DNA of 59,922 nucleotides, filler included. It is 6 parts of 6 records of this genome, joined end to end, with 100 filler letters (N's around TTAATTAATTAA, not from the genome) between each part and the next. Parts side by side here need not be neighbours in the genome. Positions count along the whole stretch, not along the records: positions 51,140 to 59,922 come from SRR31156797_34009; 5 more parts are not named here. One strand, given 5' to 3'. This document shows, in pieces, positions 9,284 to 59,922 of this stretch (its first letter is position 1; the number at the start of each line of letters is the position of its first letter). A model generated the notes under the pieces. That model did no database searches. It saw nothing but the letters and a program-made list of their open reading frames with translations, and was not told the origin of the DNA. Both the position numbers and the translations under genes were made by a program.

Positions 9284-9383
9284 NNNNNNNNNNNNNNNNN
9301 NNNNNNNNNNNNNNNNNNNNNNNNNNNTTAATTAATTAANNNNNNNNNNNNNNNNNNNNNNNNNNNNNNNNNNNNNNNNNNNN
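9284..9383. other. Contig-join spacer
   Basis: 100 nt of N with central TTAATTAATTAA. Confidence 0.99.
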
Positions 9384-15069: not shown

Positions 15070-15169
15070 NNNNNNNNNNNNNNNNNNNNNNNNNNNNNNN
15101 NNNNNNNNNNNNNTTAATTAATTAANNNNNNNNNNNNNNNNNNNNNNNNNNNNNNNNNNNNNNNNNNNN
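15070..15169. other. Contig-join spacer
   Basis: N run with TTAATTAATTAA. Confidence 0.99.
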
Positions 15170-21130: not shown

Positions 21131-21230
21131 NNNNNNNNNNNNNNNNNNNNNNNNNNNNNNNNNNNNNNNNNNNNTTAATTAATTAANNNNNNNNNNNNNN
21201 NNNNNNNNNNNNNNNNNNNNNNNNNNNNNN
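21131..21230. other. Contig-join spacer
   Basis: N run with TTAATTAATTAA. Confidence 0.99.
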
Positions 21231-21842
21231 GAACGACTCTCCCAGAGCCGCAACAGTTGCACTGTGTCAGATACGTGCCTGATGTTCGAGGTATACAATG
21301 CCTTGAGAACGCATAAATGCGTGCATGGCGTAACATTCTTCGTTGTCCAATGCAGCAGAACCAAGCGAAGCTACACCCATGTTACGGTTAACAACCTGGC
21401 CTTTATCGTTCTTTTCTTGGAAAGATTTATCGCGGGATTCTTTAGCAAGCTTGGCGATGCGTTTTTTACACCAGTCCCAGCTTTTCTCTTCCCACTCACC
21501 AGAATACGGTGCGCGGTAGAGGCATTTACCGGTACGCAATTCATTTTCAGTCATCTGAATAGAACTTGCGCCCTTTGCACAGAGAGAACCTTCATTAATG
21601 GGGTGGTCGGGATTTCCTTCCACGTTGATGGCTCTTTTGGTCTCTAAAGAGGTAGTAACCACCAATCCACAACCAACAGAACAATAAGCACAAACAGAAG
21701 TCGTTTGCTTGCTCCATTGAGGCTTCATCTGAGCGAATTTATCGACCGCTGTCCTTTTACATCCAGCACCGAGGCCAGCAAAGGCTACGCCAAGCGCTGC
21801 TGATGAAGACAGCTTTACAAAGTCACGACGATTCAATTTCAT
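21231..21842 (-). CDS. fdnG: Selenocysteine-containing formate dehydrogenase alpha subunit, N-terminal part (runs into the gap)
   Basis: Tat signal NRRDFVK; CAYCSVGC...LCAKG Fe-S motif; EHQARI-TGA-HSATVAALGESF in frame. Confidence 0.93.
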
Positions 21843-21863
21843 TCCGTAATCCTTGATCTGTTA

Positions 21864-22094
21864 TTATCTTCCACGAATTTCACAGCCGAGTACTGTGAGA
21901 AGTCTATAGCCAAAGAGCGCCACAGGAGGCTCATGAAAAGCCATGCCATCGCAAAAAGAAACTGGAGCCCAAGTAAAAACTTGAACACCCAGCGTTTCGG
22001 CATACTTTTCACACGCCTCAAGAGACACCCCAAGCCCCCCGAAAGGGAAATCGGCTGTGCTCTGCGCCGTTATCGGTTTTCCATTGTGTGCCAT
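21864..22094 (-). CDS. Small hypothetical protein upstream of fdh
   Basis: Strong RBS AAGGAGGT before ATG; ends 21 nt before the fdh start. Confidence 0.55.
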   Translation of the reverse strand: MAHNGKPITAQSTADFPFGGLGVSLEACEKYAETLGVQVFTWAPVSFCDGMAFHEPPVALFGYRLLTVLGCEIRGR

Positions 22095-22319
22095 AATGCA
22101 CCTCCTTAGCCTTACTTTTTATACTTCGTGTACAAAAGGCGTAGATAGATAGGGGGAATCCAAGAGAGCGGCAAAAGAAAGTAACTTACACAAGGTTATG
22201 CACCACTTAGGAGCGGCTCTGCTTATAGACTTTGACGATTTCTACAAAATAAAAACGGGACTGCTTATAGCTCCTGAATATTTCGATAGAATCAAAGTCA
22301 TATGGCGGCTCAAAACCAC

Positions 22320-22355
22320 AAAAAAAAGGGTTCCAAGTATCTCACTTGGAACCCT
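22320..22355 (-). terminator. Intrinsic terminator downstream of tRNA fragment
   Basis: 12-bp AGGGTTCCAAGT/ACTTGGAACCCT stem with T8 on the minus strand. Confidence 0.85.
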
Positions 22356-22366
22356 GAACTTTCTTG

Positions 22367-22415
22367 TGGTGGACCAGAAGAAAATCGAACCCACGCCCTC
22401 TTGAATGCCATTTAA
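22367..22415 (-). mobile_element. Degenerate 3' half of tRNA-Ala(GGC): probable att scar of an integrated island
   Basis: Minus strand TTAAATGGCATTCAAGAGG...GGTTCGAT...TGGTCCACCA, no D-arm or 5' acceptor strand upstream. Confidence 0.75.
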
Positions 22416-42500: not shown

Positions 42501-44310
42501 TTCATTCAGCGATGTCCCCTACGGCCCGGATGAAGTCGATCTGGTCGAGTGCCACGGCACCAGCACCAATCAGGGAGACCAGGAGGAAGTGCACGCCCTA
42601 ACCGCAATCTTCCCTGAAAACAGTGGGACAGTCCTTTCATCTTTTAAATCACAAATCGGGCACACTCTTGGAGCTTCGGGCATTACCAGCCTTATCAGGG
42701 GTGTCAACGCCATGAAGAACGGCGTGCTCCCAGCCACCCTGAATTACGAAACCCCAGATCCTGAAGTCGGCATTGAAAAAGCAGGATTTCGGGTGCTAAC
42801 AAAACCGGAGCCGTGGCCTTCCCCCGAAGGACGTCCCCGCCGCATGCAGGTGAACGCCTTCGGATTTGGCGGGGCAAGCTTTGTCGTTCACTTGGAAGGA
42901 ACCGAGGCTGACAGGGAGAACGTTTGGAGTGACGATGGGTGGGAACCCACCACTCAAACCGTAGTGCAGGAAAACAAATTAGTAGCATACCCTGTCAAAG
43001 GCGCATTCGGTTCCGCACGGGTGGCCACAGCAAGAAAAGTCAGAAGTGAAGTGGAATTTCTACTCGGCGAATTGAAAGGCAAGGAGACTATTTCCAACGG
43101 TTTCCTGAACAAACTCGCAAGCAAAGGCGTTTTCCTCGCACAAAAAACATCCAGTCCGTCCGGTCTGGCCTGGATTTTTTCCGGCCAGGGCGGTTGGTAC
43201 ACAGGCATGGGCAAGGAGCTCTATGCCTCAGTGCCTGGCATCAAGGAAACCTTAGATTTCCTCAACGAATGTGCCGACTTTGACCTGCTTGACCTCATGT
43301 TCAACGCAGGTCCAAAAAAGTTCCAAAACACCAGATGGCAACAACCCGCACTATTCGCCCTAGAATACTCCATAGCCAAACACTTATTGGATTCCGGCAT
43401 GAGCCCGGATGCCGTGGCCGGACACAGTCTCGGCGAATTCACGGCGCTGTGCGTTGCGGGGGTACTGTCTGCCGAAGACGCATTCTCAGTCGTCTGTAGT
43501 CGCGGCCGCCTCATGGACGAGGCCGCGGAAATGGTCGACGATCCAGGCGGCATGGTTGCCACCAATGCGCCGTTGGACATCCTCACCAGAAAAACAAAAC
43601 GCTTCCCCAAAACGATTATCACCAATTACAATTCTCCCAGTCAAACAGTTCTCGGCGGCCCTGTGGGGCTGCTTGACGACCTTGTGATCGAGCTTAAGGA
43701 TCAAGGTTTCCTCGCCGTACGACTCAAGGTCAGCATGGCTTTCCATTCCGGCATCATGGCCAGTGTCCACGATGCTTTCGAAGCCGAGCTTGACAGCGTC
43801 ACCTTCAATAAACCGACGATCCCCGTGATTTCCAACGTGAGCGGCGAAGTACATGAAGGTTCACCGGCTGCCATCAAGAGCACCATGATCAAACACATGG
43901 AATCTCCGGTGCTCTGGACCCAGAACACATATACGCTCTGGGAAGAACTGCAGATCCGCTCCTTCCTTGAAATCGGGCCTTCGGATACCTTGAGTACTTT
44001 TATCGGCGACACTCTCCCCAAGGCCGAATGCCAGTCCACATGCCGAGAGGACATGGAACAGGGCCAACTTCTGGACAGCACGGCATGGCTGTGCGCAAGG
44101 GGATACGGCGATATTTCGGACGGGCCGATCATCGAACTAAATGGGGCAGAGCCAACAGCTCTTGCCGTCGCACCGGCGACTCGCGTCGCCACAGGCAGCG
44201 GGTCCATCCTTGACCAAGTAATTCAGATCATCATGGATTCCACAGGCTATGAGCGAGACGAGATTGACCCGTCCATGGACATCCGCCAGGATCTCAACAT
44301 CCGCTCCAGC
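39505..44310 (+). CDS. Type I PKS/FAS: FabK/NMO-like enoyl reductase region - KS - AT - ACP (3'-truncated)
   Basis: EGNEAGGH, AGGI, GVQMGTAYL; KS AACASS, ECHGT, IGHTLG; AT GQG, GHSLG, AFHS; ACP start TGYE...DLNIRSS. Confidence 0.92.
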
Positions 44311-44410
44311 NNNNNNNNNNNNNNNNNNNNNNNNNNNNNNNNNNNNNNNNNNNNTTAATTAATTAANNNNNNNNNNNNNNNNNNNNNNNNNNNNNNNNNN
44401 NNNNNNNNNN
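44311..44410. other. Contig-join spacer
   Basis: N run with TTAATTAATTAA. Confidence 0.99.
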
Positions 44411-51039: not shown

Positions 51040-51139
51040 NNNNNNNNNNNNNNNNNNNNNNNNNNNNNNNNNNNNNNNNNNNNTTAATTAATTAANNNNN
51101 NNNNNNNNNNNNNNNNNNNNNNNNNNNNNNNNNNNNNNN
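51040..51139. other. Contig-join spacer
   Basis: N run with TTAATTAATTAA. Confidence 0.99.
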
Positions 51140-52605
51140 TAGTCGATGGGCGGTTCATCTACCACCATGTAATTATCGTTAACCACGTACATGTAGTAGT
51201 TGGTATGGAGGCGATCCAATTGGGATGCTTCCTCAACTTTTGCCATCTCCCCTATAGCTTCTATGGTCATTTTCATTGCGTCTTTATCGCTGACTTTTTC
51301 CTCTTTCCTGCTTTTCGCCAGCATCTTCTTTTTTTTCACCGCCGCCTGTAGGTTTGTGGTGAAGTCCTTCAGCGTGGAAGTTCCATTTGGGTAAACTGTC
51401 TTAACGAACCGTTTAGTAATGAACTCGATGAAAATGTGCAGGTTCTCTTTACTCTCTACGATAAGCTCACACCGCTCAATCAGCTCTTTTTTCTTGTCAG
51501 TATCCATCTGTTCAATCTGATCGTTAATGAAGTGCGCATTGTTCTGCACTACGATGATCAGGTCAAACATGTCAGACTCATCAAACTCGTACTTGAAGAT
51601 AACTCCGCTCTCCACCAACTTCTTGAATGCAGGTTCAATCTGTTCTTTTTTCTTGGAGACCGCTGTGTGCTCATGCAACTGAAGGTAAGCAACCAACTGT
51701 GAATAGGGGATGTTCAGATATGGTTTCCCGTTGGAGTGGATTCCATAGAGTCGGAGCTTCAGGAACTCATAAAGCCTCTGTGCAGTAGGATGTATCTTCA
51801 AGGAGTTGAAGATCTGCATATCAAGATAGCTGTGTCCCTTCTCCAGCAAATTATGAAAGTGAAGAAAGTTGAAATTGATATGCCAGTCCTGAACCCCTTT
51901 TTCATTGGTGAATTCAATGAAGTTGATCAGCTTAAAATCATCTGTCCGAACCGCCTCCTGACCAAGAAAAAGAGTTGACTCCATCTGAAGAGTCGTTCCA
52001 GCCATCGCCTTCAGAACACTTTTCATTCTTCTAGGATCTGATTTAAACATCTTTCGTGAATAACGGCGAAACTTACTGTATACAATGGTCGCTTCAGGGG
52101 CTTCTGAAACATGCTTCAACGCCTGAATCAGATGGACCTGCTGAATATTCTTCGGAATATCCTCAATCTCCATCTCCTTCCCTTTGTTCTTCTTCCGGAA
52201 ATCTGCACCATTCGCTGTGATGTAGTTTGCATTGAGTATAGCAATATCGGAGTTGATCATCTCCCTAAGAATGGGCTTCACGTTCTTGAAGAAGTAGTGG
52301 AAGAAATACTCAAGCTGTGCGGTCACTGTTCTATCCATCATACCCAGCTTCCGCACACGGAACTCTGCGACAACCTGATAGATTATATTGTTGAAGACGT
52401 ACTTGTGAGCGGATTTGACAACCTGCTCTGCTGGGATCTTCAAATTTTTATTATCCGTGGCAAAAAGCGGCAAACTCATCAAGTTCTTATCTGAGGCAAA
52501 CACCCCCAAGAAAGCTTCGACAACTTTATCTTTGAACTCTTTCACCTTTTTGACAACGGCCATAGAGAGACTCCTGATGTAGTTAATAAACGCATTATCA
52601 CTCAT
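51140..52605 (-). CDS. Plasmid-type replication initiator (RepA/RPA-like winged-helix)
   Basis: NLMSLPLFA, AQRLYEFLK, IPYSQLVAYLQL, QIEPAFKKLVESGVI; adjacent iteron array; last codon TAN at the gap. Confidence 0.75.
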
Positions 52606-52609
52606 GGAG

Positions 52610-53090
52610 TTTCATCTGTCAACACAAATTCTTCATCTGGGCGCACAAAATCTGCATTTCGGCGCACAGTTTACTACAGGTGACAATGGTTCTCCCTATA
52701 TACTAGGTATTACCTATGTATTACAAATCTGTGCTCGCTGAAGAAAAATGCATTATTTTCTTTCAGTGTATGGATTTAGCCATATTCAGAAAAACAGAGG
52801 CTTGAGTAAAACCCCAGTAGAACCTTCTTTAAGACGCACAGTTTTCTCTTTGCCTTTCTTCAGGGAGCACAGTTTCCAGAGATGATCTTCTTCAGAGCGC
52901 ACACATTTGTATGACACTCCTACGGATCTGCTCAAAACAGGCTTAAAAGTGCTTACTGGAGAAGATAAAGTGCGCTCTGGAGAAAAAATTGAGCTCTTTA
53001 CCGAAGAATTTGTGTTGGAATTCAGATTAAGTGTGCGCTCTAGAGAATATCACTGTGCGCTTTGCAGAAGCCACTGTGCTCTCTGAAGAA
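52610..53090. repeat. Iteron arrays (17-mer, consensus TTCTTCAGAGCGCACAG) in both orientations
   Basis: Forward copies 52825, 52856, 52888; related 21-nt-spaced copies 52610, 52631, 52652; reverse copies 52729, 52947, 52968, (52989, 53010 weak), 53031, 53053, 53074. Confidence 0.85.
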
Positions 53091-53262
53091 AGGTGATAAA
53101 CTTAACTCGTTACAACAAAAGAATTAAAGCACGCATACATGTCTGTAAATTTACTATAATCCATAACACCATAGGTTATAAAGATTGGTATGAATTTGTA
53201 AATTCTGTATTATGCATAAGAACTCCTGAAATGTGGATAACCTGTTAACAACATGTGTATGA
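53091..53262. promoter_or_regulatory. AT-rich unwinding region and DnaA boxes of the replication origin
   Basis: Perfect TGTGGATAA at 53232-53240; one-mismatch TGTGTATGA at 53254-53262. Confidence 0.7.
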
Positions 53263-53265
53263 ATG

Positions 53266-54981
53266 TCAAACAGTAATACGTCCACTTCCTTCTACCCTTC
53301 TCACCTCTCTCCCTACTATAGCAGGACAATTCTTTACTGTCACTGTATTTCCTTGCTGTGTACGGACAAGGTAGATACCTTTCTTGTCTCCATTCATAAC
53401 AGCAATGTAGCTGAAATCAGGAAATGATATCTCTGCGGAAAGGGTCAGTAAATCCCCGGATTGACTGAGAACTATACCTGATACATCTGATATTACTTTT
53501 GATTGATCAGAATAGGAATTGAAAGAATCTATCCTACTCTTTCCTCCTGAAGGTCCCTCAGAGGTATCACAAGCTCTCAGGCGGTATACATAGCTCTTTC
53601 CTATCTCTGCATCTGAATCGGTAAAAATAGGCTCCACCATTCCATTCTCTGAGTTCACTCCTGTGATCCACTCAATCAAATCATCTTCTGACCAATTATC
53701 ATTGGAGAGAGGCAGAGAAGAAGGGTCTGATACTTCTTTCCGGTAGACCTTGTACTTGTTCACATGTGGAGATCCCATGGCAAGAGGTTGAACTGTGATC
53801 TTAGTCAGTTCCCCCAAAATATTAAATTCAGGATATTTGACAACAGCAATCATCGACGGAGTCGGAATATACTTTAATTTATCACCGAAAAGGGTCAGGA
53901 GCGAGAAGTTTGCTAGGTCAAGAGAATTATTGGCCTGCTGTAGCGCAAGGCCGAGGCCGTCAAGAGCCACATAAGCCCCAAGTGGTTTTCCCACCAATTC
54001 AGAAATCCAATAGTACCTCCATGCCCGAAGACCTGAAAAGGGATAAGAAGAATTGCCCATCATACCAGAAATTGAGCTTGTCATCGCGGCTAACTGCGAC
54101 CGAGAGGAGTTGAAGACCGAAGCCAGAGCTCCCAGCCGTGAATCGAAATTGGATGTGTCATATCCGGGTTCATCCGATATATCTTCAGAATCAGGGAAGC
54201 TTGAAAAATAGTTCAGCTCTCCCTGTGCTGTACTTATCCCTTGATTACACTGGGTGATATATCCCTGAAGAGTCGGGATCTGGTTAACAGGGAGTTGTTC
54301 TTCAAGTCCCTGAATCCTCTGGAATACTTTCCCTTCCCCGGCGTCCACAGACTCCAGTAGAGAGATCGTAGCCTCTATATGGGTACGGAGGGCGGTAAAC
54401 TTACTGATAATCATCTGAAGGGGCGTCAGGAGGGCGCTACGCTCTGGATTCTGGTAATAGTCGGGGTGAATTAACTGCGGGAGGGCAGGAGGCAATGGAG
54501 AGGTCTGTTCCGCTCTTTTCGCCAGAATAGCCGCTCCTGCGTCTCTGGCGGCATTCATTGGGACACAGATACCCCCGGCAGTATTATTGTTCGGTGTGTT
54601 CGTGGTGAGCCATACAGAGCCTTTGTTCATCTCCATAGCAGGTACACCTGACTGAGGGTCCGGTGGGTATATCCCATCCGAGCCATCCCCAGTACGAGAC
54701 ACACATTGTGTGAACTCGCTCTTCCACGCGGCATCTGCCCCTATTGAGGCCATGCTCGGCTTGGCAGTATCGAAGGAAGTTGCGAGATAGGCTATCCGAT
54801 AGAAGTATTGAAAGATTGTGATAATTCCGGGGTCATCGGCTCCAGTGCCGAAGAGAAACTCATTCCCAAGGTCGCGGTATTCTCCAGCTTCTACCTTTGC
54901 CTTCCGGACTCCGTCGATGGAGTTCAGGGCATTGGCCCGGTCATCTCTGGCTTTGCCTATCTTATCTTCAATTGTTTTCAT
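53266..54981 (-). CDS. Hypothetical protein: helical N-terminal region + FN3-like beta domain (possible virion protein)
   Basis: 571-aa ORF with AAGGA RBS; YKVYRK...FTDSDAEIGKSYVYRLRACD FN3-like pattern. Confidence 0.6.
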   Translation of the reverse strand: MKTIEDKIGKARDDRANALNSIDGVRKAKVEAGEYRDLGNEFLFGTGADDPGIITIFQYFYRIAYLATSFDTAKPSMASIGADAAWKSEFTQCVSRTGDGSDGIYPPDPQSGVPAMEMNKGSVWLTTNTPNNNTAGGICVPMNAARDAGAAILAKRAEQTSPLPPALPQLIHPDYYQNPERSALLTPLQMIISKFTALRTHIEATISLLESVDAGEGKVFQRIQGLEEQLPVNQIPTLQGYITQCNQGISTAQGELNYFSSFPDSEDISDEPGYDTSNFDSRLGALASVFNSSRSQLAAMTSSISGMMGNSSYPFSGLRAWRYYWISELVGKPLGAYVALDGLGLALQQANNSLDLANFSLLTLFGDKLKYIPTPSMIAVVKYPEFNILGELTKITVQPLAMGSPHVNKYKVYRKEVSDPSSLPLSNDNWSEDDLIEWITGVNSENGMVEPIFTDSDAEIGKSYVYRLRACDTSEGPSGGKSRIDSFNSYSDQSKVISDVSGIVLSQSGDLLTLSAEISFPDFSYIAVMNGDKKGIYLVRTQQGNTVTVKNCPAIVGREVRRVEGSGRITV

Positions 54982-55331: not shown

Positions 55332-57434
55332 TTATAGATTCTCCTGCCGGGCGTACCAGTCTGCGACATGCACGGCTTCCGTCATTGGGTTGAAGTACAG
55401 TGACTTCTTGGGTATCCACAGGGCCCTACCCCGGATCTCAAGCTGAACAGCTTTCTCTGTTGCATTGAGGAGGCGGGAGGGGAAGATCTGCCGCCCACCT
55501 GTTGTCTTCGATGCAAATGCGGAAATTCTCCGAGCAACGGACTTTCCGGACTCAGTGACTTCAAGTTTCCCTTCTTCATGAGCCGCGATGACTTCATCAG
55601 GAGAAAGGTACTCGTGGCCGGGAACGATTGAAGAAGCTGGGTTCTGACCGTTGTAGAGAAAGACCAGCTTGTTCTTCGCCCGGGTGATTCCAACGTACAG
55701 ACAGAACTTCTCCCAGAGAATCTCCTGCTCTGAATTAGTAAAGCTGTAGAACTTCTTAGTATCCAGAACGGTATACGGCAGAGTCATACCCTTGGACTTA
55801 TGGATTGTCAGGAGAGTAACCGCTTCCTTGTTGGGGTCCTGATCCACATCAAAATTGGTTTTCAGGAATTCCGGGAAGCTCAAGATGTCTCCGGAGAAGC
55901 CCTCAGCCATCTGAGTCAGCATACGGATGAAATCCCAGCGCTCTTCGGTTATGGACTGACCTTCTGCATTCATCCGTGTAGTCTTCATAAACTCGGTATC
56001 ATCGAGGTGCAGGGTTTGTGCAAAAACTCCGAAGTCCCGGACATTCTCAGCTATCAGACGTTTGACTTCGAGGAGTTGAGTGATGAGGCCGTAGAACTCA
56101 CCTTTTCGTTTCTGGCCGATGCCTTGTATATGGGTGTCACTAAGATATTGGAACATGGCCTCAAGCGATCCATCGAACTCCCGGAAGACCAGATTCACGA
56201 TCTTGGTATTGATTCCGACAGGGAGGGGCTTCACGAACTCAACCCAGTCTTCTCTGGAGTTCGCACGAATCAGTGCAAGTGCGGAAATGATGAAGCGAAT
56301 CTCCTTCCGGTTCATCAGACTTTCTCCCCGGTTGGTAGCCGGGATGTTGTGGCTGGTCAGGGTGGAGAAGTACTCCATGAGCTCACGGTTGGTCCGGGCA
56401 AGGATATACATGTCCTTGTAGGGAACACCCGCCCGGTACCACTGCTGGATATGTGCCAGTGCGGTATTCAAATGGTTACCGGTGCTGACCTCTGTGAAGG
56501 TTATCGGCTCTGAGAGCTGTTCAGTCTCTGTGATAATTTTGTACTCATCCGGAATGGTCATCTCTGCTACCACATCGTTGGCAGAGTTGCTGATGGTGGG
56601 ACCGAACCGGAAGGTCTTATTCAACTGATATATTTCACAGTTTCTGAACTCAGCAAAAGCGATGAGGTTATCAGGGTCACACCCCGTGAAGCCGTATAGG
56701 TTCTGCTGAATGTCCCCTACCCCCATGAAGTGATGGTGTTCGTTCAGCAGGAGCCGCAGGATGTTGAAAACATACTTGGAAGTATCCTGTGCCTCATCGA
56801 GGATGATGTACTTGAAGTGCGCACCGTAGTGCATGGCAATCCGGGGATATTTCCTGAAGAGGTCCTCAGTCATTTTCAGCAGGTCATCGAAGGTGTACAG
56901 ACTCTTCCGGTCCATATACTCAAGAACATCCTTCAGAACTGTCTTGTAGTCATTGTTCACAAGATCTGAGAAGTTCTTGTCATGCCGGGCGTCGGAGTAC
57001 GCTTCCATGATGATCTGAAGGTCAGCCTTCTTGAACTCTCCAGAGATTTTATCCCGGTCATAGAAAATTTTGCTGGTGTACTTCAACAGGCCCTCGACTT
57101 CTTGAGTACTCATGATCTTCAGTTTTGAATTATCGATACGAAACACGTGTGCCTGCTCCCGGATAATACGGTAAGCGTAGGCATGAAAGGTGGATACGGT
57201 GAGCCGATCAAAGGTCTCTTTCCCGAGGGCTTCCACCAGCTTATCTCTGATTTCCTGAGTAGCTGTTCTACTGAAACTGAATAAGGTAATCTGCTCCGGG
57301 GCTACTCCCTTCTCTTTGATGAGGTAGGTGATTCTGTGGATAAGGGTGAAAGACTTTCCTGATCCTGCACTAGCTAAGCAAAGTACATTCGGATCCTCTG
57401 TTGTCTTCATCCTATCCTGCTGTTCTGTCAACAT
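55332..57434 (-). CDS. UvrD/PcrA/Rep superfamily-1 DNA helicase
   Basis: ASAGSGKS, DEAQD, VGDIQQNLYGF, TFRFG, LARTN, TIHKSKG, LYVGITRAK; GAGGAG RBS. Confidence 0.93.
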   Translation of the reverse strand: MLTEQQDRMKTTEDPNVLCLASAGSGKSFTLIHRITYLIKEKGVAPEQITLFSFSRTATQEIRDKLVEALGKETFDRLTVSTFHAYAYRIIREQAHVFRIDNSKLKIMSTQEVEGLLKYTSKIFYDRDKISGEFKKADLQIIMEAYSDARHDKNFSDLVNNDYKTVLKDVLEYMDRKSLYTFDDLLKMTEDLFRKYPRIAMHYGAHFKYIILDEAQDTSKYVFNILRLLLNEHHHFMGVGDIQQNLYGFTGCDPDNLIAFAEFRNCEIYQLNKTFRFGPTISNSANDVVAEMTIPDEYKIITETEQLSEPITFTEVSTGNHLNTALAHIQQWYRAGVPYKDMYILARTNRELMEYFSTLTSHNIPATNRGESLMNRKEIRFIISALALIRANSREDWVEFVKPLPVGINTKIVNLVFREFDGSLEAMFQYLSDTHIQGIGQKRKGEFYGLITQLLEVKRLIAENVRDFGVFAQTLHLDDTEFMKTTRMNAEGQSITEERWDFIRMLTQMAEGFSGDILSFPEFLKTNFDVDQDPNKEAVTLLTIHKSKGMTLPYTVLDTKKFYSFTNSEQEILWEKFCLYVGITRAKNKLVFLYNGQNPASSIVPGHEYLSPDEVIAAHEEGKLEVTESGKSVARRISAFASKTTGGRQIFPSRLLNATEKAVQLEIRGRALWIPKKSLYFNPMTEAVHVADWYARQENL

Positions 57435-57509
57435 AAAATACTCCTCTTAGTTATAACAACTGGATAGTTATAAAAGCTTTATAGATAAAGAATTTATATA
57501 GAATTTAAA

Positions 57510-57858
57510 CTCTCACTTTGAGGCTCACTGCACAGAGCTTCCATACTTTCCAGCACCTTTTTTCCAAAGGAGAGGGAAGCATTTTACGCTCTTTGCAGTC
57601 AGTCCCAAACGAGAGATGCTCACTCGTCAGCATCGACAGCACACATGAGTATGAACAAGGAAGAACTCATGATTGCCCAAGTATATTGACGCTTCCTGCC
57701 CGTCGATGCTCTGCGCATCTAGGCATTCGTTCCACGTCCCGGATTCACCCCCTCAGGTTGCTCAGGGTGCAGGCTTTTCCGGTAATCCGATTTCCTGTAT
57801 ACGTTCAGCGCCACCGCCACTTCAATCCACACGCCGAACGGCAGAGTATCTACTCTGC
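57510..57858 (-). ncRNA. Candidate ~350-nt multi-domain structured non-coding element
   Basis: Five consecutive stem domains in a GC-richer island between AT-rich flanks; some mismatches become G-U pairs on the minus strand. Confidence 0.5.
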
Positions 57859-58023
57859 ATTATTGATAGTCATTTTTTAGACAGACCCTGATAACGGGCT
57901 TGTAACAGGTAAGTACTCAGTACTGGCATTTTTTAGAGAAAAAAGTTTCAAAAAGTTTCTGATGAAAGAAATTTCTCCAAAAATTCTCTCAAATGCGTAC
58001 TCCATAGCTTAAGGAGTGAATGA

Positions 58024-59922
58024 ATGCTACGAATAGACAGAGTGGTTCTACGGAACTTCGGGTCCATCCTCTATGAAGACGTCAGCTTAGATGCCCCGAT
58101 TACGGCGTTTGCCGGGACTGGAGATAATGGTGATGGGAAGTCAACCGTTTTCAAAGGGGTGGAGCTGAACCTCTTCGATACTTTCAAGGGAACGATAAAA
58201 GACTATATCCGGTGGGGTGAGAAATCATTTGACAATGAGGTCTACTTCACATGGAACGGCCTCAAAGGACTGTCAAAGGTGCATGGCACCAAATCCAAGA
58301 ATGATCGATATCTGGAGCTTGGGGATGAGGTTATCACAGAATCCTCGGAAGTCCTCAAGAAACTGAAGTCCCTGTGGGACCCCAAAATGTTTGAGGCTTC
58401 CTCGATTATGCGAGAGGGACAGGCAGACGTAGTTACAACCAGTCCTGCTCAGCGGCGGGACCTTTTGAAAGGAGTCTACGATCTTAACTTTGATGAGGAG
58501 GTTGTAGAGCTTGAACATGAACTGGAGGAGCATAAGGAGCGTTTGAGCAACGTCGAGACTCAAATATCAGCGCTGGAGCTGAAGGAGTACCCTACCCCTT
58601 CAATACCAGTTTGTCCCCAAGAGCTCGTGGGAAAGACGGTCGAGGAAATGGAGCAACAGAAGATCGGCCATCAGCATGTTCTGGATAACTACGATCTGGC
58701 AATGTCGTCATACAGTCAGGCTCTCTCAAACCTGCACAGCTTAGACCAGATGCAAAAGAATGCGGAAAGCAATCTGAGCCGTACCAATGTAGATATTAAG
58801 AACCTGCATGCCCGGCGTCAGACAACCCTAGAAGATCAGTCGAGAGTAGTAGATGTGGAGGTTGAACTTGAGCCTCTCAAGGAGCAGGTAGAACAGAAGC
58901 AGGCTCTTGTACAGGGAATGATTCTCCCCAGAGTGGCCCCTCAAATGCTTCAGCCTTGTGACCGGTCAGAACAGACCCGGGTTTTGCAGGTAACCACGTA
59001 TCTCGAAGGGAAGCTCAGTCAAATGGAGGAAGCTCTCGCTTCAGCCCAAAAAGGGATTTGTCCTACTTGCGGGCAGACCCTTCCAGAAGTTGATACGGCA
59101 GGGTTGAAAAAAGAGTATCAGGACACAGCTCAAAATCTTTCAGAGGCGGAAAACGCGTTACGTGAAGTAAGTAAGGAGATTGCAGATTATGATGAGGAAG
59201 TTCAGAAAAGGCAAGCCGAGATTCAAGCCTACAACGATCAGGTCAATGCATACAATCGAGCCAACAATGAGCTTGAGATTGCCCGAAACAACCTCTCCTT
59301 CCAGAGGGATGCTCTTACTGCTCAGCAGAGTCAAAGACGGGAGCACCTCCAGAATACACTGGACCAGATCGATAGTGACCTCACTTTACGCCATAAAGAG
59401 GTCGAATCCCTTCAGCAGGAGGTAAAGAACGCCCAACAGGCATTCACAACAGCTCAGTCTTCCCTCCCCCCTAAACCGGAAGTGGATGAAACCGCACAGC
59501 AAAATGCACTTCAAATGGTGCAAATACTGAATGACCAGATCAGCTCCCTGCAAAGATATCACTCTCAGGTAGAGTCAGTAAGGCAGATCCAAGATCAGAA
59601 TGAACAGCTTAAGCAAAAGGATGCAGAACTGCTGGACTCGCATAAGCGCACAAGGGACGATGTGCAAGCTCAGGTGAATGGCTATGAAGAGGCGATTAAG
59701 ACTCTGAAGACTCACCTCCCCCAGTACATCCTACACCGGCTGACGAAACAGCTTGAGGATATCGCCAGTGACATGCTGGATGCCACCTACGGACACCAAC
59801 GGATCAAGTTCAAACCTACCAAAGCCTCACTGAAGCTTGTTTATGGGGAGCAGGATCAGGATGTCCAGCTAGCGTCCGGATTTGAAAAGGCCATTTTCTC
59901 TCTCGCTTTTAAGGTGGCCCTG
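58024..59922 (+). CDS. SbcC/Rad50 (T4 gp46-like) ATPase, runs off the window end; absent from the ORF track
   Basis: MLRIDRVVLRNFGS, Walker A GDNGDGKST, coiled coil, zinc hook CPTCG at 59059, signature ASGFEK at 59872, all in frame; AAGGAG RBS. Confidence 0.92.
   Translation, partial: MLRIDRVVLRNFGSILYEDVSLDAPITAFAGTGDNGDGKSTVFKGVELNLFDTFKGTIKDYIRWGEKSFDNEVYFTWNGLKGLSKVHGTKSKNDRYLELGDEVITESSEVLKKLKSLWDPKMFEASSIMREGQADVVTTSPAQRRDLLKGVYDLNFDEEVVELEHELEEHKERLSNVETQISALELKEYPTPSIPVCPQELVGKTVEEMEQQKIGHQHVLDNYDLAMSSYSQALSNLHSLDQMQKNAESNLSRTNVDIKNLHARRQTTLEDQSRVVDVEVELEPLKEQVEQKQALVQGMILPRVAPQMLQPCDRSEQTRVLQVTTYLEGKLSQMEEALASAQKGICPTCGQTLPEVDTAGLKKEYQDTAQNLSEAENALREVSKEIADYDEEVQKRQAEIQAYNDQVNAYNRANNELEIARNNLSFQRDALTAQQSQRREHLQNTLDQIDSDLTLRHKEVESLQQEVKNAQQAFTTAQSSLPPKPEVDETAQQNALQMVQILNDQISSLQRYHSQVESVRQIQDQNEQLKQKDAELLDSHKRTRDDVQAQVNGYEEAIKTLKTHLPQYILHRLTKQLEDIASDMLDATYGHQRIKFKPTKASLKLVYGEQDQDVQLASGFEKAIFSLAFKVAL

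What the first reader, a model, noticed from the sequence alone, without database searches (positions are those of the whole stretch)
57510..57858. Large, densely base-paired non-coding element between divergent helicase and SbcC genes
Seen: five back-to-back domains. (1) 57510-57615 long rod CTCTC..TTTG..ACTGCA-AGAGC / GCTCT-TGCAGT..CAAA..GAGAG with inner GCTTCC/GGAAGC. (2) AGATGC/GCATCT enclosing AGCATCGAC/GTCGATGCT and CATGAGT/ACTCATG. (3) CGGATT/AATCCG enclosing CACCC/GGGTG. (4) CGTTCAGCG/CGCCGAACG. (5) GCAGAGTA/TACTCTGC. Some mismatches become G-U on the minus strand and both flanks are very AT-rich. I find no tRNA, tmRNA, RNase P or group II domain V hallmarks. Inference: an undescribed element-encoded ncRNA, a leader regulating the helicase, or a primer-RNA/single-strand origin acting with UvrD and the hairpin-processing SbcCD complex.
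Basis: partly seen in the sequence, partly recalled or inferred. Interest (0 to 1): 0.75.

Follow-up and report, generated by a model that had tools for sequence, protein, structure and literature searches.

The report
Orphan long hairpin between helicase and SbcC genes
A non-coding stretch between two DNA-processing genes of a foreign, plasmid-like island holds one exceptionally stable 107-base hairpin, but the rest folds little better than chance, nothing like it was found elsewhere, and its function stays open.

Summary
The block 57510-57858 is 52% G+C between flanks of 20% and 33%. It matches no Rfam family and no tRNA or tmRNA.

The whole block folds better than shuffles: z -4.1 on the + strand, -4.7 on the - strand. 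Almost all of that comes from domain 1, a 107-nt rod at 57510-57616. Its z is about -6 on both strands, and it is the most stable of 2939 110-nt windows on the - strand. The remaining 244 nt give z -1.7 and -1.4. Only the end hairpins at 57800-57860 stand out there.

The overlapping 120-aa ORF shows no coding signal and has no real relatives.

I found no homologue of the element, and the flanking genes are very rare, so covariation could not be tested. No RNA run is listed.

My best reading, at moderate to low confidence, is an orphan transcribed RNA locus of an integrated plasmid-like island, with the strand unresolved. A type I toxin-antitoxin-like layout is the most concrete lead. Rivals are a helicase leader, a single-strand DNA signal and a functionless relic.

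The parts
57510..57616 (.). Domain 1: 107-nt imperfect rod hairpin. It has 35 pairs on the + strand and 39 on the - strand, a symmetric 8x8 internal loop and several 1x1 mismatches. It lies 75 nt upstream of the helicase start codon.
   Evidence: z -6.29 (+) and -6.04 (-), 0 of 200 shuffles as stable. (DNA parameters): z -5.28 and -4.84; rank 1 of 2939 (-) and 6 of 2939 (+) among 110-nt windows; pair counts.
57614..57722 (.). Domain 2: nested helices AGATGC/GCATCT, AGCATCGAC/GTCGATGCT and CATGAGT/ACTCATG. The GATGC/GCATC words occur twice each, so local hairpins can form instead of the nested fold.
   Evidence: I10, I12, I16, I17; z -2.24 (+) and -0.80 (-). The full-length - strand MFE uses a local hairpin rather than the outer nested helix.
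57741..57790 (.). Domain 3: CGGATT/AATCCG stem enclosing CACCC/GGGTG.
   Evidence: z -0.79 (+) and -1.68 (-). Not distinguishable from chance.
57803..57858 (.). Domains 4 and 5: CGTTCAGCG/CGCCGAACG stem, then the perfect 8-bp hairpin GCAGAGTA/TACTCTGC (57841-57858). On the + strand the hairpin is followed by a T-rich tail.
   Evidence: z -4.37 (+) and -2.95 (-). (I18). One search lists 57841-57858 as terminator-like on the + strand (2 such sites found in the region; 0.6 expected from shuffles).
57435..57509 (.). Left AT-rich flank (20% G+C). It holds direct repeats (TAGTTATAA.. twice, ATA[A/T]AGAATTT twice), small palindromes, the helicase ribosome-binding site, and a weak -10-like TAGAAT at 57499-57504 facing the rod.
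   Evidence: (D2, D4, I2). Promoter matches are at chance level (1 found, 1.1 expected).
57859..58023 (.). Right AT-rich flank (33% G+C). It holds a tandem AAAAAGTTTC repeat, an inverted repeat and the ribosome-binding site of the Rad50/SbcC-like gene.
   Evidence: (D1, D3, D5, I14).
57620..57718 (-). 32-aa ATG ORF inside domain 2 (MRRASTGRKRQYTWAIMSSSLFILMCAVDADE). It has a basic N-terminus, a hydrophobic core and an acidic C-terminus. Its start codon lies in a GAUGC/GCAUC stem, and its stop codon lies in the loop of a terminator-like hairpin (57634-57615). This is a lead only.
   Evidence: 13 of 374 ATG ORFs of 20-60 aa in the window are as hydrophobic, about 0.08 expected per 350 nt. Against: no Pfam hit, no atlas recognition (best score 0.76), no coding signal, no good Shine-Dalgarno.
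57518..57880 (+). 120-aa TTG ORF spanning the block. Judged not to be a gene.
   Evidence: no family; 2 hits in 1.84 billion proteins, both to tandem-repeat junk (BLASTP E 52); codon score -0.073 per codon, against an in-frame mean of +0.150; no third-position G+C bias.
55332..57434 (-). UvrD/PcrA-type superfamily 1 helicase, 700 aa. A member of a very rare subfamily.
   Evidence: PF00580, PF13361. (phrog_1967, E 4.5e-79). (PADLOC RTasHel 9.8e-52, GajB 7.4e-48); only 9 full-length relatives at 30-53% identity among 5.8 billion clusters.
58024..59922 (+). Rad50/SbcC-like coiled-coil ATPase with a zinc-hook-like CxxC. It is cut off by the window end at 633 aa.
   Evidence: phrog_77, 3e-27. (Rad50 models, below their cut-offs). 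(Rad50_zn_hook 3.8e-4, below cut-off). (LmuB 4.4e-13); only 4 distant relatives, each about 715 aa.

Best explanation
The block is a non-coding, orphan locus of a horizontally acquired, plasmid-like island. Most likely it is transcribed as its own structured RNA, not translated into the 120-aa ORF.

The flanking AT-rich segments carry the operators, promoters and ribosome-binding sites of the two divergent genes. The block is closed at both ends by hairpins that face outward and are followed by U-rich sequence. On the - strand this is the 107-nt rod followed by UUUAAAUUCU. On the + strand it is the 8-bp hairpin followed by AUUAUUGAU. These would end a transcript of about 350 nt and shield the neighbouring promoters.

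The single most concrete mechanism I commit to (about 0.2-0.25 on its own) is a type I toxin-antitoxin-like maintenance module:
- A - strand mRNA starts in the right flank and has a folded 5' part.
- It carries the 32-aa basic/hydrophobic/acidic ORF, whose start codon is buried in a stem.
- Its 3' end is formed by the small hairpin and/or the rod.
- A + strand antisense RNA starts at the base of the rod (-10-like TAGAAT at 57499-57504) and pairs with that 3' region.

Shown: the structure statistics, the lack of coding signal, the orphan status and the island context. Inferred: transcription, strand, RNA ends, translation of the small ORF and any toxicity.
For: Non-coding:
- The codon score of every frame lies in the off-frame range.
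- No family or real homologue for the 120-aa ORF.

A discrete unit:
- 52% G+C block between 20% and 33% flanks.
- The flanks carry repeats, palindromes and the neighbours' ribosome-binding sites.

Structure:
- Rod z about -6, top-ranked hairpin of the 60-kb window.
- End hairpins z -4.4 (+) and -3.0 (-).
- Terminator-like sites at 57841-57858 (+) and 57634-57615 (-).
- The - strand folds 23 kcal/mol lower and has 11 G-U pairs against 5.
- The + strand folds are better defined: the MFE structure makes up 0.78, 0.64 and 0.14 of the ensemble for D4-5, D3 and D2, against 0.13, 0.42 and 0.005 on the - strand.

Small ORF:
- It is the most hydrophobic small ORF of the region.
- About 0.08 such ORFs are expected by chance in 350 nt.
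- Its stop codon sits in the loop of the terminator-like hairpin.

Context suited to a maintenance or regulatory RNA:
- Identity with the nearest genome ends at about 44.3 kb, beside tRNA-His.
- An array of about 10 copies of a roughly 20-bp repeat lies in front of a 505-aa ORF. The atlas places that ORF near replication-initiator clusters (RPA/Rep3_N) at score 0.92-0.93, which is a lead only.
Against: - No transcript evidence: no RNA run is listed.
- Promoter-like matches are at chance level (1 found, 1.1 expected). My looser scan found only 8-9 of 12 matches.
- Without the rod the block is not significantly structured: z -1.7 and -1.4.
- The strand asymmetry is largely compositional, with G 108 against C 73 on the - strand. 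The shuffle z-scores are alike on both strands.
- The U-tracts after both end hairpins are poor.
- The small ORF has no Shine-Dalgarno at a proper distance, no Pfam toxin family, no atlas recognition and no codon signal. It was picked after the fact.
- The + strand antisense RNA has no terminator after the rod.
- No homologue exists to show conservation.
Confidence: 0.4

Rival explanations
1. Cis-acting leader or attenuator of the helicase operon. A - strand transcript starts in the right flank and runs through the block. It either stops at the rod plus U-rich tract, 75 nt before the helicase start, or reads through into helicase, a 77-aa ORF, a 571-aa ORF and the Rep-like gene. The duplicated GAUGC/GCAUC words would allow alternative folds.
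For: - Same strand and immediate proximity to the helicase.
- The - strand rod is the most stable 110-nt hairpin of the window and is followed by UUUAAAUUCU.
- A second terminator-like hairpin at 57634-57615 competes with the nested domain 2 helices.
- From recall, not from a call: satellite phage P4 controls its primase-helicase operon through a processed leader RNA.
Against: - The 75-nt spacer has operator-like repeats and palindromes of its own. That suggests the helicase has its own promoter there.
- No ligand- or protein-binding motif of any Rfam leader was found.
- The helicase relative in L005 has only a 54-nt upstream gap and no such leader.
- The body of the leader is not significantly structured.
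Confidence: 0.15
2. DNA-level signal that acts in single-stranded DNA: a priming or single-strand initiation site, a single-strand origin, or an Frpo-like single-strand promoter. The rod would form when the island's replicon is unwound or transferred, and would recruit a primase, the helicase or RNA polymerase.
For: - The rod is as exceptional with DNA parameters: z -5.3 and -4.8.
- It is equally significant on both strands, as expected for a palindrome in DNA.
- It sits beside a helicase in an island with a putative iteron origin and Rep.
- A TTGGGA-16-TAAAAT match lies on one arm, with the -10-like hexamer in the 8x8 internal loop.
- Frpo elements are described as folded ssDNA that mimics a duplex promoter (PMC11541004, passages read).
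Against: - That promoter match is 9 of 12 and at chance level.
- No similarity to anything in 72,556 plasmid or 50,697 phage records.
- No relaxase, SSB or anti-defence gene was seen among the island ORFs that were scanned.
- The Rep-like gene with its repeat array points to theta-type replication, not rolling-circle, and that putative origin is 4.5 kb away.
- The CS-6-like hexamer of ssoA origins (a recalled motif) is absent.
Confidence: 0.2
3. No dedicated function. The block would be a decayed remnant of foreign DNA that contains a palindromic duplication or a single stray MITE-like insertion. It was picked out because it is the most foldable spot in 60 kb.
For: - The next-best windows score -3.9 against -4.5 for the rod.
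- The other 244 nt fold at chance level.
- The element is a singleton wherever I could look.
- The neighbouring genes are themselves near-orphans.
Against: - The outer arms are about 80-85% alike (my count on the two arm sequences printed), while the 8x8 internal loop shares nothing. The inner stem pairs again. This looks maintained rather than like a uniformly decaying palindrome.
- No second copy, target-site duplication or multi-copy family was found: none in the window, none in the nearest genome G001, and 0 real matches in 401 genomes of the class.
- The block keeps gene-like G+C inside an otherwise 20-33% G+C spacer.
Confidence: 0.2

Closest known systems
Type I toxin-antitoxin loci of plasmids and prophages (hok/sok-like and Fst-like classes; general knowledge, recalled)
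   Same: - A few hundred nucleotides of non-annotated, folded sequence on a plasmid-like element.
- A small ORF with a charged end and a hydrophobic core.
- A start codon inside a stem, and a hairpin right after the stop.
- Room for an antisense RNA from the opposite edge.
   Different: - No match to any Pfam toxin family.
- A weak hydrophobic segment of 17 residues with three serines.
- No convincing Shine-Dalgarno.
- No promoter or terminator for the antitoxin.
- A 107-nt rod is not a usual part of such loci.
- Nothing has been tested experimentally.
Frpo/ssi single-strand DNA promoters and priming signals of conjugative plasmids (PMC11541004, passages read; Masai and Arai 1997 seen only as a reference there)
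   Same: A long imperfect hairpin in a mobile-element intergenic region, upstream of ORFs. Promoter-like hexamers lie on one arm, and the -10-like hexamer falls in an unpaired bubble.
   Different: - No sequence similarity to any plasmid record.
- The hexamer match is at chance level.
- No oriT, relaxase, SSB or anti-defence context was seen.
- The rod is 107 nt, whereas known Frpo regions are about 300 nt (recalled).
Intrinsic terminators or insulating hairpins between transcription units
   Same: Hairpins at both ends of the block, each followed in the outward direction by U-rich sequence.
   Different: The rod is far longer than a usual terminator stem. Its base is weak and the U-tracts are interrupted. 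The flanking genes diverge, so there is no upstream gene to terminate unless the block itself is transcribed.
Large structured ncRNAs of mobile elements held in Rfam (for example GOLLD, ROOL, HEARO and 6S-like rods; names recalled)
   Same: Located on a mobile element, sized in the hundreds of nucleotides, with rod-like helices.
   Different: No Rfam model matches, even at E up to 10. No multi-domain fold beyond chance. No family of homologues.

Membership tests
Any Rfam 15 family (4227 models) | Covariance-model score at or above the family's gathering score | tested here: not met
   0 matches in the whole window; 8 matches at E 0.68-9.1, scoring 11-20 bits against cut-offs of 40-230 bits.
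tRNA / tmRNA | ARAGORN-detectable cloverleaf or tag-peptide RNA | tested here: not met
   the only gene found is tRNA-His at 44132-44225.
Protein-coding gene (120-aa ORF 57518-57880) | Codon usage like the genome's genes, and homologues or a family match | tested here: not met
   score -0.073 per codon, below all but 0.9% of in-frame chunks; no family; only 2 spurious hits in 1.84 billion proteins.
Type I toxin-antitoxin | Small ORF (under 60 aa) with a membrane-type hydrophobic segment | tested here: inconclusive
   the 32-aa ORF has a best 15-residue Kyte-Doolittle mean of 2.01, which 13 of 374 comparable ORFs in the window reach. The segment is short.
Type I toxin-antitoxin | Similarity to a described toxin family | tested here: not met
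   0 Pfam families at E up to 10 for the 32-aa ORF; best atlas score 0.76, low recognition.
Type I toxin-antitoxin | Antisense RNA that pairs with the toxin mRNA; toxicity when expressed | not testable with these tools
   No RNA run is listed. This needs experiments.
Frpo/ssi single-strand promoter | Sequence similarity to known Frpo/ssi elements | tested here: not met
   no blastn match in 72,556 plasmid records. These include F-like plasmids, although the reference elements themselves were not on hand.
Frpo/ssi single-strand promoter | -35 and -10 hexamers rebuilt in the stem; location in a leading region beside oriT with SSB or anti-defence genes | tested here: inconclusive
   TTGGGA-16-TAAAAT on one arm, 9 of 12, at chance level; no relaxase or SSB among the scanned ORFs. 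The island runs past the window end.
Retron msr-msd or DRT ncRNA | Adjacent reverse transcriptase gene | tested here: not met
   no RT domain in any ORF scanned between 34.4 kb and the window end. The helicase's best PADLOC hit is the RT-associated helicase model 'RTasHel', but no RT is in view. DNA beyond 59922 was not seen.
Rolling-circle single-strand origin (ssoA type) | Conserved CS-6-like hexamer in a terminal loop (motif recalled) and a rolling-circle Rep nearby | tested here: not met
   the hexamer is absent on both strands of 57435-58023. The nearby Rep-like ORF is preceded by an iteron-like array.
MITE / repeated palindromic element | Multiple copies in the genome, terminal inverted repeats, target-site duplication | tested here: not met
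   No second copy in the window, in the nearest genome G001 or 40 other relatives, or in 401 genomes of the class, where only 7 matches of 23-36 nt at chance level were found. The window's own assembly is not held.

The most novel reading that the evidence does not exclude
The block is the first seen member of an undescribed class of mobile-element RNA or ssDNA element. In this reading the 107-nt rod, with its 8x8 bubble, is a dedicated loading or priming platform for the rare UvrD-type helicase next to it, or a partner of the SbcC-like hairpin-processing ATPase. The element would thus work physically with the two flanking DNA-processing enzymes rather than merely regulate them.
Probability: 0.08. 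Interest if true: 0.7.

Novelty: new member of a known kind. Interest (0 to 1): 0.3.

Why it matters
If transcribed, this would be an orphan regulatory or maintenance RNA in a plasmid-like island whose genes are themselves almost unique in public data. The helicase has 9 full-length relatives, the SbcC-like protein has 4, and the 571-aa protein has none. It would be a small entry point into how such a rare replicon is controlled.

As it stands, it is a single sequence with one strong hairpin. It does not open a long-standing question, and conservation cannot support it. The practical value of this check is to cut the claim from 'large five-domain ncRNA' down to 'one exceptional rod hairpin in a non-coding block'.

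Tried and rejected
Homologue hunt for the element. All searches came back empty.
- blastn against 41 relatives.
- Plasmid and phage records.
- blastn and nhmmer against 164 fetched loci.
- The rest of the window.
- Earlier findings of this scan.
- 401 genomes of the class: 7 matches of 23-36 nt at per-genome E 0.001-0.009, which is the number expected by chance.

Anchoring on the neighbouring genes.
- Helicase as a single protein in genome contigs and viral contigs: nothing.
- Helicase alignment A1 in metagenome contigs and genome contigs: 80 loci each. The tool chose the generic Walker A and DExx patterns, so only L005 (33% identity) belongs to the subfamily.
- L005 has a 54-nt upstream gap, other neighbours and no element.
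- P0001, P0002, P0003 and the 571-aa protein in viral contigs: nothing.
- SbcC-like protein in viral contigs and in 201 genomes of the family: nothing.
- A1 profile in 401 genomes of the class: nothing at E 1e-70.
- tblastn of the helicase against phages and plasmids: only hits at 30% identity or less.
Covariation therefore remains untested.

Expression. No RNA holder is listed, and the only holder is the likely source run. Laying its contigs showed one contig across the stretch, with no variant, joint or inversion.

Ideas dropped.
- Invertible promoter. The flanking inverted repeat I1 is only 78% complementary in AT-rich DNA. No recombinase is near and no inverted form was seen.
- Integron attC, IS200/IS605 ends, REP elements and a protelomerase site. 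Judged by eye from recalled consensus, the rod's ends do not fit. This was not tested by a tool.
- Strand call from G-U counts. The 11 against 5 difference is explained largely by G content.

PDB sequence searches of the three unknown or partial neighbours gave nothing.

Full report
**What is there**

The 589-nt spacer lies between a UvrD-type helicase (55332-57434, - strand) and a Rad50/SbcC-like ATPase (58024 to the window end, + strand). It has three parts:
- a 75-nt left flank of 20% G+C;
- a 349-nt block (57510-57858) of 51.9% G+C;
- a 165-nt right flank of 33% G+C.

ARAGORN finds no tRNA or tmRNA here. Rfam 15 gives no match at gathering score anywhere in the window. In a permissive scan of 57300-58150 it gives only 8 noise-level matches, at 11-20 bits against cut-offs of 40-230 bits.

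**Is it more than chance?**

The whole block folds better than dinucleotide shuffles: z -4.12 on the + strand and -4.67 on the - strand, with 0 of 100 shuffles as stable. Taken apart, the signal is very uneven (200 shuffles each).

| Part | z (+) | z (-) | Shuffles as stable (+, -) |
|---|---|---|---|
| D1 rod, 57510-57616 | -6.29 | -6.04 | 0, 0 of 200 |
| D2, 57614-57722 | -2.24 | -0.80 | 4, 35 of 200 |
| D3, 57738-57792 | -0.79 | -1.68 | 37, 14 of 200 |
| D4+D5, 57800-57860 | -4.37 | -2.95 | 0, 3 of 200 |
| Block without the rod, 57617-57860 | -1.68 | -1.36 | 13, 16 of 200 |

I also compared the block with the window's own sequence, regressing MFE on G+C.
- Among 2939 windows of 110 nt, the rod ranks 1st on the - strand and 6th on the + strand.
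- Among 596 windows of 350 nt, the block ranks 8th on the - strand but only 128th on the + strand.
- With DNA parameters the rod is as exceptional: z -5.3 and -4.8.

What is solid is one long rod hairpin plus the terminal hairpins, not a five-domain architecture.

**Coding or not**

The 120-aa TTG ORF (57518-57880) covers the block almost exactly, so I tested it directly.
- It has no Pfam, NCBIfam, PADLOC or PHROG match.
- A read-every-protein search of 1.84 billion representatives gave 2 hits. The better one, a tandem-repeat protein, has nothing real in common with the ORF (BLASTP E 52). The other matches in 11 separate stretches and was not examined further.
- I trained a codon-usage log-likelihood on 24 long ORFs of the window. 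In-frame 120-codon chunks average +0.150 per codon and off-frame chunks average -0.200. The ORF scores -0.073, lower than all but 0.9% of in-frame chunks.
- No frame of either strand does better than -0.045.
- There is no third-position G+C bias.

The block is non-coding by these tests.

**Context**

Identity with the nearest held genome (99%) ends at about 44.3 kb, next to tRNA-His. Nothing beyond that point matches it. The finding therefore lies in a strain-specific island.

Downstream of the helicase, on the same strand, lie a 77-aa ORF, a 571-aa ORF with no detectable relative and a 660-nt gap. That gap holds about ten copies of a roughly 20-bp repeat in two orientations (folds). After it comes a 505-aa ORF that the protein atlas places near replication-initiator clusters (RPA/Rep3_N) at score 0.92-0.93, which is only a lead. 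This looks like an integrated iteron-type replicon.

The helicase is best matched by a phage helicase family (phrog_1967, E 4.5e-79) and the ATPase by phage SbcC-like proteins (phrog_77, E 3e-27). In PADLOC the helicase hits the RT-associated helicase model and GajB models, and the ATPase hits LmuB weakly. No reverse transcriptase, GajA or LmuA is in view.

**Relatives**

I found none for the element.
- No match in 41 relatives.
- No match in 72,556 plasmid and 50,697 phage records.
- No match in 164 fetched loci or in the rest of the window.
- No match in this scan's earlier findings.
- In 401 genomes of the class, only 7 short matches at chance level.

The neighbours are very rare.
- The helicase has 9 full-length relatives at 30-53% identity among 5.8 billion clusters.
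- The ATPase has 4 distant relatives.
- Neither was found in 201 or 401 related genomes or in viral contigs.

The only subfamily locus I could read is L005, at 33% identity. It has a 54-nt upstream gap, no element and unrelated neighbours. The pairing of the two genes, and of either gene with the element, is thus unsupported elsewhere. Covariation could not be tested.

**Expression**

No RNA run is listed. The single holder is the likely source DNA run. Its contig crosses the stretch without variant, joint or inversion.

**Reading the anatomy**

Both flanks carry repeats, small palindromes and the strong ribosome-binding sites of the neighbouring genes. They look like the neighbours' own control regions.

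The block is closed by hairpins that face outward.
- On the - strand the rod is followed by UUUAAAUUCU.
- On the + strand the 8-bp hairpin 57841-57858 is followed by AUUAUUGAU. The scan lists this site as terminator-like (2 sites found, 0.6 expected).

A weak -10-like TAGAAT at 57499-57504 would start a + strand RNA at the first base of the rod. All promoter matches, however, are at chance level.

The strand is unresolved.
- The - strand folds lower and has more G-U pairs, 11 against 5. It is also the G-rich strand.
- The + strand folds are better defined in the ensemble.

**The small ORF lead**

On the - strand, domain 2 holds a 32-aa ATG ORF with a basic N-terminus, a hydrophobic core and an acidic C-terminus. 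Its start codon sits in a GAUGC/GCAUC stem. Its stop codon sits in the loop of a terminator-like hairpin at 57634-57615. ORFs this hydrophobic are 13 of 374 in the window, so about 0.08 are expected per 350 nt.

This is the layout of a type I toxin mRNA, and the island is plasmid-like. Against it:
- the ORF has no Pfam toxin match;
- it has no atlas recognition;
- it has no codon signal;
- it has no proper Shine-Dalgarno;
- I picked it after the fact.

**Verdict**

I put about 0.4 on 'a transcribed, orphan RNA locus of the island'. Within that, the type I toxin-antitoxin-like layout is the single most concrete mechanism, at about 0.2-0.25 on its own. The rivals are:
- a helicase leader or attenuator, 0.15;
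- a signal acting in single-stranded DNA (ssi-, sso- or Frpo-like; Frpo as described in PMC11541004, passages read), 0.2;
- a functionless relic or stray palindrome, 0.2.

It belongs to no known family that I could test. It is best filed as a new, single-copy member of a known kind: a hairpin-bearing non-coding locus on a mobile element. Interest is modest unless transcripts or conserved relatives turn up.

Noticed in passing
window 52606-53100: About ten copies of a roughly 20-bp repeat (core like TTCTTCAG.G.GCACAG). About six lie in one orientation and four to five in the other. The array fills the gap in front of the 505-aa ORF (51088-52605, - strand). It folds at z -3.5 and -4.6 because of the inverted array. 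This looks like an iteron origin next to a replication initiator. The atlas places the ORF near RPA/Rep3_N clusters at 0.92-0.93, which is a lead only.
   Followed up: partly
window 44132-44410: Identity (99%) with the nearest held genome ends at about 44311, beside tRNA-His (44132-44225, - strand). That genome has two further 84% copies of the last 100 nt. Everything from there to the window end is strain-specific island DNA.
   Followed up: partly
window 21600-22400, - strand: A region with few long ORFs that holds several of the most stable windows of the - strand. Ranks 1-4 of 596 at 350 nt (starts 22210, 22310, 21710, 22110). Ranks 3-6 of 2939 at 110 nt (starts 22290, 22310, 22270, 21910). 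No Rfam match.
   Followed up: no
window 53266-54981, - strand: A 571-aa ORF in the helicase operon with no relative at E 1e-5 in the 5.8-billion-cluster search. It also has no Pfam, PHROG, PADLOC, NCBIfam or PDB match.
   Followed up: partly
window 9284-9383, 15070-15169, 21131-21230, 44311-44410, 51040-51139: Five pairs of 44-base N stretches (withheld sequence). One pair cuts the 3' end of the 505-aa ORF, and one lies at the island boundary.
   Followed up: no
L005 4950-7672: In the only readable locus of a helicase-subfamily relative, the helicase is followed a few genes later by a TnpB-like protein (OrfB_IS605 and Cas12f1-like TNB domains) and a PIF1-type helicase.
   Followed up: no
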